From: Escherichia phage T4
DNA: 64,000 bases
Reading direction: 5' to 3' (one strand)
Sequence record: NC_000866.4
The first letter of the stretch is position 1, and every line of letters starts with the position of its first letter. Positions 19,132 through 29,893 of this stretch are shown here, piece by piece. A program made the translations under genes and the position numbers. The notes under the pieces were generated by a model. The model saw only the letters and a list, made by a program, of their open reading frames with translations. It was not told where the DNA came from and did not search any database.

Positions 19132-19758
19132 TTAACCTCTATTCATAAAAGCATTAAAAATTTGGTCATCAATAGAAACATTTACTTTAGGCTGTTTTTC
19201 AGATGGCAATTCATATCCACATATTACAATTTTATGATCAATATCAAAATACACAGAAGCAATATGATTAATGATATTTTCAGTAAAGTCTAAATCAACA
19301 TCAATATCTTTTTGACCAAAGCCCAAAGGATAAATAATGCGAGTAATTCGATTATCTTTAACAAAGATTCCACCGACATACTCTGTGCTGCGTTTAAAGT
19401 CTACACGCCGACGAAATGAAAAATATTCAGGCTCTTTATGAGCTCGGCTCATAGGACACAACGAATAACTAGAATAAGAGATGTCAAATCCTACGCCTTC
19501 AATATGAACTAAATTGTCATGATTAAACCAATTATAATCATATGCCAAGTCCATTAGATTGTCATATGTGAAAAGCACCGGATTAACATCATTGGTCACA
19601 AGCATATAATTAGCAACTGCTATAATTTCATTATTTTTAACGAATACAAACCGTGATTGATGCGAATGGCCTGGACCTGCGTTTTCACGATTAATGATAT
19701 AACACTGGGCACCTTTATATTTGTACGTGTCTTTACACTTGTGCATTTGATAAAGCAT
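19132..19758 (-). CDS. hypothetical protein at the 61.2 position (possibly the anti-DarT factor AdfA)
   Basis: 208-aa ORF; assignment by synteny and from memory only. Confidence 0.55.
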   Translation of the reverse strand: MLYQMHKCKDTYKYKGAQCYIINRENAGPGHSHQSRFVFVKNNEIIAVANYMLVTNDVNPVLFTYDNLMDLAYDYNWFNHDNLVHIEGVGFDISYSSYSLCPMSRAHKEPEYFSFRRRVDFKRSTEYVGGIFVKDNRITRIIYPLGFGQKDIDVDLDFTENIINHIASVYFDIDHKIVICGYELPSEKQPKVNVSIDDQIFNAFMNRG

Positions 19759-20051
19759 TATTCACCTACCACTTCAGCGATGATATTTTTGTTATTAAAG
19801 TTTTTATCGCAATACAGAACATAATTATACTGCATTACACCACCAGACTTAAGCTGTTTTTGCACTTCAGCTTTCATTTCAGGACGATCACGCTTAACGA
19901 TATTCATAATATCTGCTTCAATTTGAGTTTCAACCTCAGTCTGATCCGCAGTCATAGACCATTCGCACAAATCTTTATCATAACCTGCCATAGCAGGCTG
20001 AGCAGCACAAGAAGCTAAAGCAAAAATTGTAGCAAAGATGAATTTTTTCAT
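19758..20051 (-). CDS. predicted lipoprotein
   Basis: 97-aa ORF with signal peptide and lipobox (MKKFIFATIFALASCAAQ...). Confidence 0.65.
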   Translation of the reverse strand: MKKFIFATIFALASCAAQPAMAGYDKDLCEWSMTADQTEVETQIEADIMNIVKRDRPEMKAEVQKQLKSGGVMQYNYVLYCDKNFNNKNIIAEVVGE

Positions 20052-25478: not shown

Positions 25479-26219
25479 TTAAGCGTATTTTCCTACATAA
25501 TCTTTTTTCGAAATATGTGTTTCGCCAGTTTTCCACCAATGATCAACCAAATAAAAATGACGAGAATACACATGTAGGCTTCCAACATTCCATATAATGG
25601 AACCTGCTTTATACTGGCGAGTTGAATCACCTGCATTCAAATCAGATACTAATTTATCTAATACGTATTTTTGCCATGCATAATCATTACGGAATCCGAA
25701 GACCACGTCATTTGAGCGCATGTTAACAACCGCATTGATTTTCTTGTCACGAATCAGGTATTGTACTGTATTCGTGCACATGAAATCTGACATACCATCT
25801 TTATTATAGTCAAACTGCATAGATGGACGAGTATAAATCATGATACCACGTCGAGAATCAGGATTTTGACCAAGTTCAGCTAAACACATGTCATACTGAG
25901 CATAGTTATCTTCTGACCAGATAGCCCAACCATAATTCGAGTTAATTTCACCTTTAGAAGATGCTACTTGTTGCCAAATCTTCGGTGTTTCACCCGGAAT
26001 ATCTTTAACGAACAAGCTTTTAGATTTATACCATTCAAGTTCACGCTGAATGTATTCATCATTAAGAGCGCCAAAAATAAACGGTTCATCTGCTACAAAT
26101 GATGCGCCAATAATTTCAATAGTTTTAACACCTGTTTTATCAACTACGAAATCTTTTTCTTTTAATGCAAGCCCCAAATGAAGACGGATTTCTTCAACTG
26201 TCATAGAGTCACTAATCAT
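25479..26219 (-). CDS. 42: dCMP hydroxymethylase gp42
   Basis: 246-aa ORF, thymidylate-synthase-like fold. Confidence 0.93.
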   Translation of the reverse strand: MISDSMTVEEIRLHLGLALKEKDFVVDKTGVKTIEIIGASFVADEPFIFGALNDEYIQRELEWYKSKSLFVKDIPGETPKIWQQVASSKGEINSNYGWAIWSEDNYAQYDMCLAELGQNPDSRRGIMIYTRPSMQFDYNKDGMSDFMCTNTVQYLIRDKKINAVVNMRSNDVVFGFRNDYAWQKYVLDKLVSDLNAGDSTRQYKAGSIIWNVGSLHVYSRHFYLVDHWWKTGETHISKKDYVGKYA

Positions 26220-26227
26220 TTAAACCT

Positions 26228-26376
26228 CAATTGATACATTCATATTTAACTTGTAACAGTAATAAACTCCAACCTAAAATAATAGTTGGAATCATAAGAG
26301 GAACCGTTACACTATAGTATATACTTATTATAATCATCAAGATTAAAAGCAATGCTGCTATAATTTTGCTTTTCAT
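26228..26376 (-). CDS. possible 49-aa membrane peptide
   Basis: By-eye ORF MKSKIIAALLLILMIIISIYY...; its ATG overlaps the upstream stop (ATGA). Confidence 0.35.
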
Positions 26377-26624
26377 TCCTTCTCTCTGATGATAATTACC
26401 TGATTTGGCTGCGCAGACTTTTTAGTTTCACCTGCAATTGACCAAATAAATGTAATAAACCAACCAATAATTGACCAGTTAAACAGTAAAGATGCGAAAA
26501 AGATTCCTACTGTCGATTTTGACCCACGCATCAAGGCGATAAACCATGGAAGCATGTATATAATAATAGCCAACACGCCTGAAACTAAAACCATAAAAAT
26601 TGAACCTGCTACTAAAGTTTCCAT
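26373..26624 (-). CDS. imm: two-TM membrane protein, probably Imm
   Basis: ORF METLVAGSIFMVLVSGVLAIIIYMLPWF... with two hydrophobic helices; ATG at 26622-26624 gives 83 aa. Confidence 0.6.
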   Translation of the reverse strand: METLVAGSIFMVLVSGVLAIIIYMLPWFIALMRGSKSTVGIFFASLLFNWSIIGWFITFIWSIAGETKKSAQPNQVIIIREKE

Positions 26625-26635
26625 GTTTTCCTCAC

Positions 26636-27025
26636 TTAGGTCAAATTTTTTACACATGAATTATAAGAATTCACTACATACTCCATCGGAGCGTTTTTAC
26701 CTGTACGCCACTGGTAATTATTAGCCCAATTTGCCCAAAGCTCAGCGCAGTAGTTTTCAATTTTTTCTTCGCGTGTAATTACATCTGAATTACGATATGC
26801 TTGAGCAGATTCATCTGGACGAATAGCTTCGTCAAAATTCGCCTGCATTTGTTCTACTGTCTGTTTTGGAGCTTCTTTATAACACTTGACATTAGGATTA
26901 TAAAATTTGCTTGAACAGTTTACAATTTTTCCTACATCAGACTGATTTACTACCGGTCCTTGAGCTACACAACCAGCAAGACCTAATGCAATAACCAAAA
27001 TAGCGATTTTCATTTCATTCTCCAA
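26636..27025 (-). CDS. predicted lipoprotein (imm.1 position)
   Basis: 129-aa ORF with signal peptide and lipobox (LGLAGC). Confidence 0.6.
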   Translation of the reverse strand: MENEMKIAILVIALGLAGCVAQGPVVNQSDVGKIVNCSSKFYNPNVKCYKEAPKQTVEQMQANFDEAIRPDESAQAYRNSDVITREEKIENYCAELWANWANNYQWRTGKNAPMEYVVNSYNSCVKNLT

Positions 27026-27048: not shown

Positions 27049-27080
27049 GTATAGTACCATGGAAGAACAGTCTTGTAAAC
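27049..27080 (-). promoter_or_regulatory. early sigma70-type promoter
   Basis: Minus strand GTTTAC -35 with AT-rich UP-like tract, just upstream of 26636..27025. Confidence 0.55.
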
Positions 27081-27167: not shown

Positions 27168-27185
27168 AGGGACCTGGAGGTCCTA
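27168..27185 (-). terminator. hairpin downstream of gene 43
   Basis: gggacc-tgg-aggtcc inverted repeat after the gene 43 stop. Confidence 0.5.
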
Positions 27186-27196
27186 GATTTATTCTA

Positions 27197-29893
27197 TCAG
27201 CCAAACAGGAAGTCTAACGAAGCTTTTTCTTCATAGTCCATGCCAGCCGATTCACACATACCCGCAAGCGGTTTAACAAACGATTTTTGGAACAAAGTTG
27301 AGTGGTCAATCCAAGATAGCACATCAGAACGAATTTCTTTTGGAAGTTCTGTACCCGATGGCCAAGCAATGCACTTGTCACCAAATGGATTTCCTTCACG
27401 TAATGGAAGAACCATTACTTTATTTCCATCCAAAATTGGAGCTACACCTAAACCGCTAACAGCTCGACGATAAGTTAGCACACCACGAATATGGAACGGG
27501 CATTTAAATCCTGGCCAACCTTTATCATCATATTTCGCTATATCGTTCGCAGTTTTTACTTCAGCAATAACTTTATAGTCAAGTTGACGATATTCTTTCT
27601 CGAAGTTCTTGTAGTATTCTTGGACAGACTCTTCACCTTCCTGAAGAATACGACGAATACTTTCTTCGAGAGCTTCTTGCACTGCTTTTGGTGTTGAACT
27701 CTGCTGAGTTTCCATACCCATGATTTTTAGATGCGGTTCAGCAAATCGCTTATCTTCCATATCATAAACGTTCAGAGCATAACGCTTTTTCGCTTTCCAA
27801 AATCCACCAACGCCCTTTGAACCAAGCGGAGGGCAAGAAATAGCTTCACGGTCCATATGCATCAGATGCTCGCGGTTATTCATATAATCACATAACTCAC
27901 GATATGCAACATCAATCATAGGTTCCATCTTTTTCTTACCGAACTGATTCATGAATTCAACCAAATCGTTCTGCTCTTTGAATCGGTCAAGACCAACTTT
28001 TTCAATAACTTTATCTACGCAAACATATACCGAATCAGTATCACCTGCTGCAATGAAATCTTCATCATTAGTTCCGCATACTTTATTCAGATATTCATTA
28101 ATTTTACGAGCAATCCACTGAATACCGACTTGGCCGAAAATTGTGATAGCAGTAGCATTTCGCAAATCATAGTAACGGAAATGAATATTACCAAGAGCAC
28201 CATAAAGACTGTTAATGAGAATTTTACGGTTCAGCTGATTTGTATTAGCAAGTGTAGCTGCTTTTTCACATTCTTCAATCAGACTATTGAGAACAGATTC
28301 GGTGTAATTCGATAGTTCATTTAAGAAATCATCACTGAACTTAACATATCGTTCAACTTCTGGTTTAGTTGAACAAGACCCTGCGCCTTTCATAATAATC
28401 TTTTTAATAGCTTCGGCATTCATTTCTTCAGCGAACATTTTCTTTTTCCAGTCTTTACGCTGGAAAAATACTTTAGCGATTTCCTTTGGAATGATACCTT
28501 CTTGATGTTTATCATACATCCATCCATTCGGAGAACAAGAATATTCATCACTCGGTTTAGGAGCTGTTCCTGCGATATATTCATGAATTGGATGAACTTT
28601 AAACTGACCACGAATAGTTTCAGGACTAATGTTAACCTGGCGAATAATGCTCGGATACAGAGACGTCAAGTCAAAACTCATAATGTATCGACGTGCAATT
28701 GGTTTAGGTTCAAACACAAATGCACCCGGAAAACTCTGTTTAACGTGCGAACCTTGTTGAGGAATAACCTTATGTTCACCTTTCAATGAGTTAAAAATAA
28801 TAGCATCCCAAGTTTTAATAGGACTCATTACACCAGAAAAAGGCATTTTAGCGTAATAAGACATACTTAAAACTAGATCGATAAACCCACGAATTTTATC
28901 GATTGCTTGAACTGATTCTACGTCAATGATGTTATAACTAATGTATCGTTGATGATTAGTCTCACGAAGTTTATTAATAGGACCGTCGTATGGTAATTTA
29001 CCTTTTTTGGTTTCATGTTGAGCAACTGATTCCAAAGAGAATGACGGCAAATTAGTAAAAGCGAATTTCTTGTACAAATCTAAATAATCAAGAATAGATA
29101 CGCCATCAATAGAATAAATTTCTTTGCTACCGTACATATTTTGAATTAGTTTAGATTTTACCCGACCGATTGGAGAGAAACGTTTCATACTACGTTCACC
29201 CAGAATCATTTTAACACGATTCATGATATACGGAACGTCAAACCCCTCAATATTCCAACCAGTAAAAATAGCAGGTCGTTTCTGTTCCCAAAGATTGATA
29301 TATTCCATGAGCATATCACGCTCATTATCGAATGGCATATAAATTACTCGGTCAAGAATTTCTTGAGGAACTTCATCACCACCTTCACAGTCAAGCTTAG
29401 CAGCTAACTTTGCATCCCATTTTGATACTGAACCGTACATTGAATTCAAAAGGTCGAAAACATAAAAACGATCGTCAATTGAATCGTAATGAGTGATAGC
29501 ATCAATTTCATATTCTGCTTTCATTGGGTCAGGAAATTTATCACCAGTAACCTCAATGTCACAGTTAGCTACACGAACAAATTTTCGGTCATAAACAATT
29601 TCTGAACCATATGTATCACTTATATAAGCGAGTTTAAAATCGTTCATACCGAGAGCTTCGAGACCGATGTCTTCCATTCGCTTCATCCAATCTCGAGCAT
29701 CTTTCATTGATGGAAATTTTTGAGGAGCGCAGTTTTTACCATAGATGTCTTTGTATTTTGACTCTTCCTTACAATGCCTAAACATAGTTGGAAGATATTC
29801 TACTTCACGGGTACGTTCCTTTCCATTTTCATCAATATAACGTTCAACAATGTTATTTCCGACTGTTTCAATAGAGATATAAAATTCTTTCAT
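27197..29893 (-). CDS. 43: DNA polymerase gp43 (family B)
   Basis: 898-aa ORF MKEFYISIETVGNNIVERYIDENGKER... Confidence 0.96.
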   Translation of the reverse strand: MKEFYISIETVGNNIVERYIDENGKERTREVEYLPTMFRHCKEESKYKDIYGKNCAPQKFPSMKDARDWMKRMEDIGLEALGMNDFKLAYISDTYGSEIVYDRKFVRVANCDIEVTGDKFPDPMKAEYEIDAITHYDSIDDRFYVFDLLNSMYGSVSKWDAKLAAKLDCEGGDEVPQEILDRVIYMPFDNERDMLMEYINLWEQKRPAIFTGWNIEGFDVPYIMNRVKMILGERSMKRFSPIGRVKSKLIQNMYGSKEIYSIDGVSILDYLDLYKKFAFTNLPSFSLESVAQHETKKGKLPYDGPINKLRETNHQRYISYNIIDVESVQAIDKIRGFIDLVLSMSYYAKMPFSGVMSPIKTWDAIIFNSLKGEHKVIPQQGSHVKQSFPGAFVFEPKPIARRYIMSFDLTSLYPSIIRQVNISPETIRGQFKVHPIHEYIAGTAPKPSDEYSCSPNGWMYDKHQEGIIPKEIAKVFFQRKDWKKKMFAEEMNAEAIKKIIMKGAGSCSTKPEVERYVKFSDDFLNELSNYTESVLNSLIEECEKAATLANTNQLNRKILINSLYGALGNIHFRYYDLRNATAITIFGQVGIQWIARKINEYLNKVCGTNDEDFIAAGDTDSVYVCVDKVIEKVGLDRFKEQNDLVEFMNQFGKKKMEPMIDVAYRELCDYMNNREHLMHMDREAISCPPLGSKGVGGFWKAKKRYALNVYDMEDKRFAEPHLKIMGMETQQSSTPKAVQEALEESIRRILQEGEESVQEYYKNFEKEYRQLDYKVIAEVKTANDIAKYDDKGWPGFKCPFHIRGVLTYRRAVSGLGVAPILDGNKVMVLPLREGNPFGDKCIAWPSGTELPKEIRSDVLSWIDHSTLFQKSFVKPLAGMCESAGMDYEEKASLDFLFG

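What the first reader, a model, noticed from the sequence alone, without database searches (positions are those of the whole stretch)
26228..27025. Cluster of three small envelope proteins after gene 42
A 49-aa hydrophobic peptide (by eye), an 83-aa two-helix membrane protein (Imm position) and a 129-aa lipoprotein are translationally coupled and sit downstream of an early promoter. Only Imm has a known role (superinfection immunity), so the other two may belong to the same exclusion mechanism.
Basis: partly seen in the sequence, partly recalled or inferred. Interest (0 to 1): 0.35.

Follow-up and report, generated by a model that had tools for sequence, protein, structure and literature searches.

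The report
T4 imm.1–imm–42.1 envelope gene string
These are three real, already catalogued small envelope genes of phage T4 lying between its DNA polymerase gene (43) and gene 42: only the middle one (Imm) has a known job, it does that job alone, and comparison with related phages shows the other two are independent add-ons rather than parts of the same machine.

Summary
The window is phage T4 in reference coordinates. On the minus strand, between gene 43 and gene 42, lie imm.1 (26636-27013), imm (26373-26624) and a 49-aa ORF (26227-26376). The 49-aa ORF is called 42.1 in T4T and is not annotated in the T4 reference.

- The lipoprotein is 125 aa from the ATG, not 129.
- In transcription order the cluster lies upstream of gene 42.

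All three are real genes.
- imm.1 is Pfam DUF5481, has an LAGC lipobox, and shows early RNA and early protein in published omics.
- imm is PF14373.
- 42.1 is phrog_3610, with dN/dS of 0.2-0.4 across eight lineages.

A T4-type early promoter and a terminator hairpin sit upstream.

The "same mechanism" idea is not supported.
- Imm alone excludes T4 and binds the tape-measure protein (2026 preprint).
- imm.1 knock-down has no fitness cost.
- The three genes occur separately. The lipoprotein exists without imm in Karamvirus and other lineages. 42.1 stays behind when imm moves in Mosigvirus.

One point does favour a link. The short DUF5481-type lipoprotein sits directly upstream of imm in 5 of 5 lineages, and in Mosigvirus it sits next to spackle.

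An independent periplasmic role in handling secondary adsorption is plausible but untested. These genes are already known, so interest is low to moderate.

The parts
27169..27184 (-). Terminator-like GC hairpin after gene 43, followed by a T-run
   Evidence: GGACCTCCAGGTCC then CTTTTTCATA. It is annotated as a putative termination signal in M37159. Resequenced T4 genomes carry one extra C at 27181, which makes the stem perfect.
27051..27079 (-). T4-type early promoter (gTTTACA-N17-TACTAT, TG before the -10 hexamer, A/T-rich upstream) driving imm.1
   Evidence: It matches the T4/PST consensus TTTACW-N17-TAYWAT (PMC4122927). imm.1 RNA is classed as early (PMC9697503 supplement). Activity of this site was not measured here.
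26636..27013 (-). imm.1 (T4p046, UniProt P18057): 125-aa prolipoprotein. It is 126 aa in resequenced T4.
   Evidence: Pfam DUF5481 E 5.8e-72; phrog_1754. Early RNA and early protein were detected. CRISPRi knock-down is 'Not Fit'.
26969..27013 (-). Signal peptide with lipobox LAGC. Cys15 (codon 26971-26969) is the predicted lipidated N-terminus, and +2 is Val.
   Evidence: Read directly from the sequence. A lipobox Cys is present in 18 of 20 family representatives; two have an ordinary signal peptide instead.
26373..26624 (-). imm (T4p045, P08986): 83-aa inner-membrane superinfection immunity protein
   Evidence: PF14373 E 1e-15; phrog_1039. The N-terminus ME[TLA] is conserved across genera. 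It works alone and binds gp29.
26227..26376 (-). 42.1: 49-aa hydrophobic micro-protein with two hydrophobic segments around a conserved P-x-MIPT motif and a C-terminal KYEC(F/I)N. It is not annotated in the T4 reference.
   Evidence: Annotated as '42.1' in T4T. phrog_3610 E 1.2e-25. Homologues carry Pfam PF26865 Phage_T4_Y02C. tblastn finds it in 648 phage records. dN/dS is 0.2-0.4 with saturated dS.
26327..26351 (-). MotA-box-like middle promoter (TGCTTTTA...TATAAT) inside the 42.1 ORF, upstream of gene 42
   Evidence: Pattern match only. It is consistent with imm and 42 being classed as 'middle' RNA. Not tested here.
25479..26219 (-). Gene 42 (dCMP hydroxymethylase), the downstream neighbour. 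Its ATG lies 7 nt after the 42.1 stop.
27197..29893 (-). Gene 43 (DNA polymerase), the upstream neighbour

Best explanation
The region holds three independent early envelope genes of phage T4, packed into one transcription unit between genes 43 and 42.

**Shown**
- An early promoter behind the gene 43 terminator drives imm.1. Tight spacing passes ribosomes on to imm, 42.1 and 42.
- Imm is an inner-membrane protein. It blocks genome entry of later-arriving T-even phages on its own, by binding the helical-bundle domain of their tape-measure protein gp29.
- The three genes have separable distributions among T4-like phages. Imm.1 and 42.1 are therefore not obligatory subunits of Imm.

**Inferred from sequence and models**
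- Imm.1 is exported, lipidated at Cys15 and sorted to the inner leaflet of the outer membrane. A flexible tether of about 35 residues carries a conserved short motif (QG-x-VV-x-x-S-x-VGK). A disulfide-stapled helical hairpin (invariant C75 and C106 of the mature protein) hangs into the periplasm.
- 42.1 is a two-segment inner-membrane hairpin.

**Inferred function (least certain)**
- Imm.1 acts by itself in the periplasm on something common to all T-even infections. The most likely target is the consequences of secondary adsorption. That would make it an extra layer beside Spackle (periplasm, gp5 lysozyme) and Imm (inner membrane, gp29), not a masker of a particular receptor.
- 42.1 is a small membrane accessory whose link to imm is positional.
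For: - **Identity and annotation:**
- **Families:**. All five lipoproteins from five genera hit phrog_1754 over their full length.
- **Expression:** imm.1 shows early RNA and early protein.
- **Promoter and terminator:**
- **Imm acts alone:**
- **Separable distributions:**
  - T4: LP-imm-42.1.
  - VR26 and Bp7: imm-42.1-LP.
  - KPV15 and L089: LP-imm with no 42.1.
  - Mosigvirus: LP-imm-sp, with 42.1 left beside gene 43.
  - L082, L083 and L090: LP-SIS(-42.1) without imm.
  - L085 and PG7: LP only.
- **Link to exclusion genes:** the short-type LP is directly upstream of imm in 5 of 5 lineages. All 25 T4-like imm loci have the LP next to imm, or separated from it only by 42.1.
- **Periplasmic design:** lipobox or signal peptide in all 20 representatives, and invariant Y24, C75 and C106. 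The models give a disordered N-terminal tether plus confident helices. The T4 model has pLDDT above 90 for residues 67-110. The VR26-type model has mean pLDDT 83 with a 69-residue helix.
- **Against receptor masking:** all 500 Tequatrovirus-type copies are at least 95% identical.
- **42.1 is a real gene:**
Against: - No experiment links Imm.1 or 42.1 to exclusion.
- imm.1 knock-down is neutral in a pooled T4 fitness screen in which imm itself scored 'Fit'.
- The lipoprotein persists in phages with no detectable imm nearby (PG7). Its function therefore cannot depend on Imm and may have nothing to do with exclusion.
- Adjacency to imm may only reflect both genes sitting in the same variable slot after gene 43.
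- Lipidation, outer-membrane sorting and the disulfide are predictions.
- The T4 model is only moderately confident overall (pLDDT 73.5). Neither model matches any informative fold.
- In Mosigvirus each of LP, imm and sp has its own early promoter. They are separate cassettes, not one operon.
Confidence: 0.55

Rival explanations
1. Imm.1, Imm and 42.1 are parts of one exclusion device: Imm needs the outer-membrane lipoprotein and/or the micro-protein to block DNA entry.
For: - Tight packing, including the ATGA overlap of imm and 42.1.
- All three are envelope proteins made early.
- The same trio occurs in a different order in VR26, Bp7 and L077-L079.
- The short-type lipoprotein is always directly upstream of imm.
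Against: - Imm alone excludes T4 and binds gp29.
- The lipoprotein occurs without imm.
- imm occurs without 42.1.
- 42.1 stays behind when imm moves, and it couples equally to an SIS-domain gene.
- imm.1 knock-down is neutral while imm knock-down is not.
Confidence: 0.1
2. Imm.1 masks a receptor in the manner of T5 Llp or the Cor proteins. As an outer-membrane lipoprotein it binds the periplasmic face of the phage's outer-membrane receptor (OmpC for T4), stops further adsorption, and protects progeny from cell debris.
For: - It is a small early phage lipoprotein with an intramolecular disulfide, predicted to sit on the periplasmic side of the outer membrane. This is the same general design as Llp (PMC9586334).
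Against: - No Pfam or fold similarity to any known family.
- The gene sits beside the DNA polymerase gene, not beside the receptor-binding protein gene as llp does.
- All 500 Tequatrovirus-type copies are at least 95% identical. Members of that genus use different receptors (OmpC, Tsx, FadL, OmpA; established knowledge, not tested here).
- T4 exclusion is described as blocking DNA entry, not adsorption (PMC6832632).
Confidence: 0.1
3. Imm.1 is a host-envelope takeover factor unrelated to exclusion. It might stiffen or re-tether the outer membrane during the long lysis-inhibited state, or interfere with a host periplasmic system. It sits next to imm only because both occupy the variable slot after gene 43.
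For: - The lipoprotein is the most widespread of the three genes. It is anchored after gene 43 even where imm is absent.
- Long family members are predicted to have a 69-residue helix, long enough to reach far into the periplasm.
- Knock-down is neutral under laboratory conditions.
Against: - When the lipoprotein moved in Mosigvirus, it landed with imm directly beside spackle.
- The short type is always directly upstream of imm.
- No candidate host target was identified here.
Confidence: 0.25
4. The 49-aa ORF is not a gene. Its conservation reflects the middle promoter and ribosome-binding region of gene 42 that lie within it.
For: - It is not annotated in the T4 reference.
- A MotA-box-like promoter lies inside it.
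- RB69 annotators described the homologue as 'similar to T4 42-imm intercistronic region'.
Against: - The ORF is kept open at 45-51 aa in eight or more lineages, with a conserved protein motif.
- dN/dS is 0.2-0.4 while synonymous sites are saturated.
- It is present where gene 42 is not the downstream neighbour, as in VR26, RB69 and L082/L083.
- It has its own PHROG and Pfam families.
Confidence: 0.05

Closest known systems
T4 Imm (Pfam PF14373, Imm_superinfect; phrog_1039)
   Same: The middle ORF is T4 Imm itself. It has the same sequence and coordinates as T4p045/P08986, and the domain hit has E 1e-15.
   Different: Nothing differs for the 83-aa product. The 94-aa 'long' form is open only in the reference sequence. 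Three resequenced T4 genomes lack 1 bp at 26639/40, which puts the upstream ATG out of frame.
DUF5481 (PF17578) / phrog_1754, T4 Imm.1 family
   Same: The 125-aa ORF is the founding member of this family (E 5.8e-72).
   Different: The Pfam model recognises only the short T4 and Mosigvirus type. The longer lipoproteins of Gaprivervirus, Dhakavirus, Jiaodavirus and Karamvirus join the family only through the PHROG profile. The family has no assigned function. Some records label members 'immunity protein' or 'iduronate sulfatase', and I found no domain-level support for either name.
T5 Llp / Cor superinfection-exclusion lipoproteins
   Same: Both are small, early, phage-encoded outer-membrane lipoproteins with a disulfide that face the periplasm (PMC9586334).
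   Different: There is no sequence or fold similarity. Imm.1 is not encoded beside a receptor-binding protein gene. It is nearly invariant across a genus whose members use different receptors. No receptor-binding data exist.
T4 Spackle (gp61.3)
   Same: Both are early, exported, small, mainly helical periplasmic proteins with a disulfide. In Mosigvirus, spackle is encoded directly after the lipoprotein-imm pair.
   Different: There is no homology: hhalign probability is 0.1%. Spackle is soluble and inhibits gp5 lysozyme (PMC7677548). Imm.1 is predicted to be lipid-anchored and its target is unknown.
Phage_T4_Y02C (PF26865) / phrog_3610
   Same: The 49-aa ORF belongs to this family (phrog E 1.2e-25). 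The Pfam label appears on homologues.
   Different: The family has no known function. My local Pfam copy did not return this model for the T4 protein itself.

Membership tests
Imm_superinfect (PF14373) | Match to the family profile above the curated cut-off | tested here: met
   57.8 bits against a cut-off of 27.9; E 1e-15.
Imm_superinfect (PF14373) | Blocks entry of superinfecting phage DNA and binds tape-measure protein gp29 | not testable with these tools
   Reported for this exact protein in bioRxiv 10.64898/2026.03.06.709160.
DUF5481 (PF17578) / phrog_1754 | Match to the family profile above the cut-off | tested here: met
   239 bits against a cut-off of 27, E 5.8e-72; phrog_1754 E 4.9e-43.
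Bacterial lipoprotein (signal peptidase II substrate) | Positively charged n-region, hydrophobic core, and lipobox [LVI][ASTVI][GAS]C within about 15-25 residues of the start | tested here: met
   MKIAILVIALGLAGC has K2, the core IAILVIALGL and L-A-G-C ending at residue 15. A lipobox Cys is conserved in 18 of 20 representatives.
Bacterial lipoprotein (signal peptidase II substrate) | Outer-membrane sorting, meaning no Asp at +2 | tested here: met
   +2 is Val in T4. It is A, G, V or Q in the family and never Asp. This is a prediction from the sorting rule only.
Bacterial lipoprotein (signal peptidase II substrate) | Actual acylation and globomycin-sensitive processing | not testable with these tools
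   Needs labelling or globomycin experiments.
Llp/Cor receptor-masking lipoproteins | Sequence or fold similarity to Llp or Cor | tested here: not met
Llp/Cor receptor-masking lipoproteins | Encoded next to the receptor-binding protein gene | tested here: not met
   The gene lies between DNA polymerase gene 43 and imm/42.
Llp/Cor receptor-masking lipoproteins | Binds and inactivates the phage's outer-membrane receptor | not testable with these tools
   No data exist. Near-invariance across Tequatrovirus argues against specificity for one receptor.
Spackle (gp61.3) family | Homology to Spackle | tested here: not met
   hhalign probability 0.1%, E 0.55.
phrog_3610 / PF26865 Phage_T4_Y02C | Match to the family profile | tested here: met
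   phrog_3610 E 1.2e-25 over residues 3-49. Homologues from VR26 and RB69 also hit it. The PF26865 label is precomputed on homologues and was not returned by my local Pfam copy for T4.
Outer-membrane spanin subunit (o-spanin) | Late lysis-cassette gene paired with or embedded in an inner-membrane spanin gene | tested here: not met
   The gene is early, not late. Its neighbours are imm and gene 43. There is no spanin family hit.

The most novel reading that the evidence does not exclude
Imm.1 is a third, outer-membrane-anchored layer of T-even superinfection exclusion or resistance to lysis from without. It would act in the periplasm through the conserved linear motif on its tether, independently of Imm (inner membrane, gp29) and Spackle (periplasm, gp5). 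That would give T-even phages one dedicated blocker per envelope compartment. 42.1 would be a small inner-membrane modulator made in step with Imm.
Probability: 0.25. Interest if true: 0.55.

Novelty: already known. Interest (0 to 1): 0.28.

Why it matters
T4 exclusion has been attributed to Imm and Spackle for fifty years, and a mechanism for Imm was reported only in 2026. Two conserved envelope genes wrapped around imm still have no function. The comparative picture assembled here tells an experimenter three things.
- Imm.1 and 42.1 should be tested as independent factors, not as Imm subunits.
- A receptor-masking role for Imm.1 is unlikely.
- Mosigvirus, with its lipoprotein-imm-spackle order, is the natural place to look for combined effects.

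This is a pointer for bench work on a model phage, not a discovery.

Tried and rejected
**Function of Imm.1 from structure**
- Two AlphaFold models were made.
- Foldseek against the PDB gave a best E of 4.5.
- Foldseek against BFVD returned only a family member from phage JS10.
- A PDB sequence-profile search gave 0 hits.
- None of these was informative.

**Other family libraries**
- NCBIfam and PADLOC gave only noise.

**Homology of Imm.1 to Spackle**
- Rejected: hhalign probability 0.1%.

**Widening the family**
- A word-indexed homologue search with the T4 protein returned 3 near-identical clusters.
- The exhaustive profile search found only 20 clusters among 1.84 billion representatives. 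The family is therefore small and nearly confined to T4-like phages.
- The search for related loci with the lipoprotein alignment failed because no stretch was conserved enough.

**A general 'Imm plus lipoprotein' rule outside T4-like phages**
- Only 3 of 49 other PF14373 loci have an adjacent same-strand lipoprotein gene. That is not convincing.

**Literature**
- No paper in the library mentions imm.1 in its main text, and none mentions DUF5481.
- Miller 2003 and Lu & Henning 1989 are not held.

**The 94-aa Imm start**
- Rejected. It is open only in the reference sequence, and the N-terminus ME[TLA] is conserved across genera.

**The TTG start at 27025 for imm.1**
- Rejected in favour of the ATG at 27013, which has GGAG upstream. 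The TTG overlaps that ribosome-binding site.

Full report
**What the region is**

The 1.2 kb around the finding is 100% identical to T4 record M37159 and 99.8% identical to resequenced T4 genomes. Published gene tables give the same coordinates as the window: imm.1 at 26636-27013, imm at 26373-26624 and gene 43 at 27197-29893. The window is therefore the T4 reference in its own numbering.

All genes here are on the minus strand. In transcription order they run as follows.

| Feature | Coordinates |
|---|---|
| Gene 43 | 27197-29893 |
| Terminator hairpin | 27169-27184 |
| Early promoter | 27079-27051 |
| imm.1 | 26636-27013 |
| imm | 26373-26624 |
| 49-aa ORF (42.1) | 26227-26376 |
| Gene 42 | 25479-26219 |

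The 49-aa ORF is annotated as '42.1' in T4T but has no locus tag in the reference.

**Check of the observation**

The three ORFs exist as described. Four corrections apply.
- The 129-aa length of the lipoprotein counts from a TTG that overlaps the ribosome-binding site. The annotated ATG at 27013, preceded by GGAG, gives 125 aa.
- Imm is 83 aa.
- The published model gives Imm four helices rather than two.
- 'After gene 42' holds only in plus-strand coordinates.

The lipoprotein call is sound. MKIAILVIALGLAGC has a basic n-region, a hydrophobic core and an L-A-G-C lipobox. Val at +2 means no inner-membrane retention signal.

Packing is tight.
- imm.1 stops 11 nt before the imm ATG, with GAGG between them.
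- imm and 42.1 overlap as ATGA.
- 42.1 stops 7 nt before the gene 42 ATG.

The promoter gTTTACA-N17-TACTAT fits the T4/PST early consensus TTTACW-N17-TAYWAT published for promoter/stem-loop cassettes. imm.1 RNA is classed as early.

**Are they real genes?**

- *imm.1.* It hits DUF5481 (E 5.8e-72) and phrog_1754. It is found in 655 phage records. A time-resolved omics study lists it as 'early RNA, early protein', so the protein was detected.
- *imm.* It hits PF14373 and is found in 987 records.
- *42.1.* It hits phrog_3610, and homologues carry the Pfam label PF26865 Phage_T4_Y02C. It is found in 648 records.
  - Eight lineages keep it open at 45-51 aa with a shared motif, IYW..P.MIPTL.IGW....Q.KYECFN.
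  - Pairwise dN/dS is 0.2-0.4 while synonymous sites are saturated.
  - It is therefore a coding gene and not merely the promoter region of gene 42, although a MotA-box-like middle promoter does lie inside it.

**What is known about function**

A 2026 preprint shows two things. Imm expressed alone reduces T4 plating. Imm also co-purifies with, and was imaged bound to, the helical-bundle domain of the tape-measure protein gp29. Reviews attribute T4 exclusion to Imm and Spackle only. I found no paper that discusses imm.1 or DUF5481 in its text. In a genome-wide translational knock-down screen of T4, imm.1 scored -0.77 (p 0.98, 'Not Fit'), whereas imm scored 1.40 (p 0.022, 'Fit').

**Comparative genomics**

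Lipoproteins (LP) next to imm in five genera share little pairwise identity: Tequatrovirus, Mosigvirus, Gaprivervirus, Dhakavirus and Jiaodavirus. All of them hit phrog_1754 over their full length. The arrangements differ.

| Phage or locus | Arrangement |
|---|---|
| T4, L076, L084 | 43 \| LP-imm-42.1 |
| KPV15, L089 | 43 \| LP-imm-42 (no 42.1) |
| VR26, Bp7, L077-L079 | 43 \| imm-42.1-LP |
| Mosigvirus | dmd-61.4-LP-imm-sp-61.2; 42.1 stays beside gene 43 |
| L082, L083, L090 | 43 \| LP-SIS(-42.1), no imm |
| L085, Karamvirus PG7 | LP only |

- In Mosigvirus each of LP, imm and sp has its own early promoter.
- For PG7, the 40 kb examined contains spackle but no imm or 42.1.
- All 25 T4-like imm loci sampled have the lipoprotein beside imm, or separated from it only by 42.1. 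The reverse is not true.
- 42.1 overlaps by 4 nt whichever gene is upstream, whether imm or the SIS-domain gene.
- The three genes are therefore separable modules.
- The one positive signal for a link is that the short DUF5481-type lipoprotein sits directly upstream of imm in all five lineages that have it, and moved with imm to the spackle locus in Mosigvirus.

**The lipoprotein itself**

An exhaustive profile search found only 20 clusters at 50% identity among 1.84 billion representatives. Eighteen have a lipobox. Two have an ordinary signal peptide, so the lipid anchor is not absolutely required.

The conserved and predicted features are as follows.
- Y24, C75 and C106 of the mature T4 protein are invariant.
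- The segment just after the lipidated Cys carries a conserved motif (QG-D/P-VV-x-x-S-x-VGK).
- That segment is predicted to be disordered.
- The C-terminal helices are modelled with confidence. In T4, residues 67-110 have pLDDT above 90.
- The VR26-type model has mean pLDDT 83, with a beta-hairpin and a 69-residue helix.

No informative fold or sequence match exists in the PDB or BFVD, and there is no relation to Spackle. All 500 Tequatrovirus-type copies are at least 95% identical. Members of that genus use different receptors (established knowledge, not tested here), which argues against an Llp-like receptor mask.

**Most likely account**

*Shown.* One early transcription unit encodes three independent envelope proteins, and Imm works alone.

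*Inferred.* Imm.1 is an outer-membrane-anchored periplasmic protein whose tether motif and stapled hairpin engage a target common to T-even infections. 42.1 is an inner-membrane hairpin.

*Least certain.* Imm.1 adds a periplasmic layer to the handling of secondary adsorption. A role in the host envelope unrelated to exclusion is almost as likely.

**Verdict**

The 'same mechanism' reading is not supported, and a weaker 'related but independent' reading remains open. The genes and their families are already catalogued, so novelty is 'already known' and interest is modest.

Noticed in passing
window 26639-26640 and 27181: The T4 reference (and M37159) differs from three independently resequenced T4 genomes (T4T HM137666, MT984581, OZ035787) by one extra base pair at 26639/40 and one missing C at 27181. 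The first change makes Imm.1 125 aa instead of 126 aa. It also puts the upstream ATG at 26657 in frame with imm. The 94-aa 'long Imm' used for cryo-EM in the 2026 preprint is therefore open only in the reference sequence. The second change makes the terminator stem after gene 43 imperfect.
   Followed up: yes
L004 570-1605 (Shigella phage phi25-307, Mosigvirus); T4 sp = window 19758-20051 (-): In Mosigvirus the lipoprotein-imm pair lies between 61.4 and spackle, giving three consecutive exported or membrane early genes. Each has its own GTTTACA-N17-TAYWAT early promoter. This looks like a cassette-type rearrangement of the kind described for promoter/stem-loop elements.
   Followed up: partly
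window 26373-26644 (imm and its ribosome-binding site): In the CRISPRi-ART screen imm scored 'Fit' (1.40, p 0.022), although that study's own list has it as non-essential. Guides sit on the imm start, which is coupled through 42.1 to essential gene 42. A polar effect on 42 is one possible explanation. A real cost of losing exclusion in a pooled infection is another.
   Followed up: no
window 26327-26351 (-): A MotA-box-like middle promoter (TGCTTTTA...TATAAT) lies inside the 42.1 coding sequence, about 110 nt upstream of gene 42. The 42.1 sequence would then serve both as a gene and as a promoter.
   Followed up: no
GenBank/RefSeq records under hits H10, H11, H16, H22 and many others: Homologues of imm.1 are annotated variously as 'iduronate sulfatase', 'immunity protein', 'Phage immunity' or 'capsid and scaffold protein'. 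No sulfatase or other domain supports any of these names. They look like propagated mis-annotations.
   Followed up: partly
L080 3001-3459 and L081 1633-2091: A distant member of the lipoprotein family (P0018, E 5e-5) sits among a resolvase, an acetyltransferase and an HTH regulator, not in a T4-like context. This suggests the family also occurs on other mobile elements.
   Followed up: no
L028 3524-3940, L043 4350-4772, L044 2078-2422: In three of 49 non-T4-like viral contigs with a PF14373 protein, an unrelated lipoprotein gene lies directly next to it on the same strand. This is too few to call a pattern.
   Followed up: partly
L003 2318-3801 (RB69), L082, L083, L090: Where imm is absent after gene 43, the slot holds an SIS-domain (arabinose-5-phosphate isomerase-like) gene and a nucleotidyl-transferase gene, with 42.1 wedged between them. 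These resemble the genes linked to arabinosyl-hmC DNA modification in RB69 (paper title).
   Followed up: no
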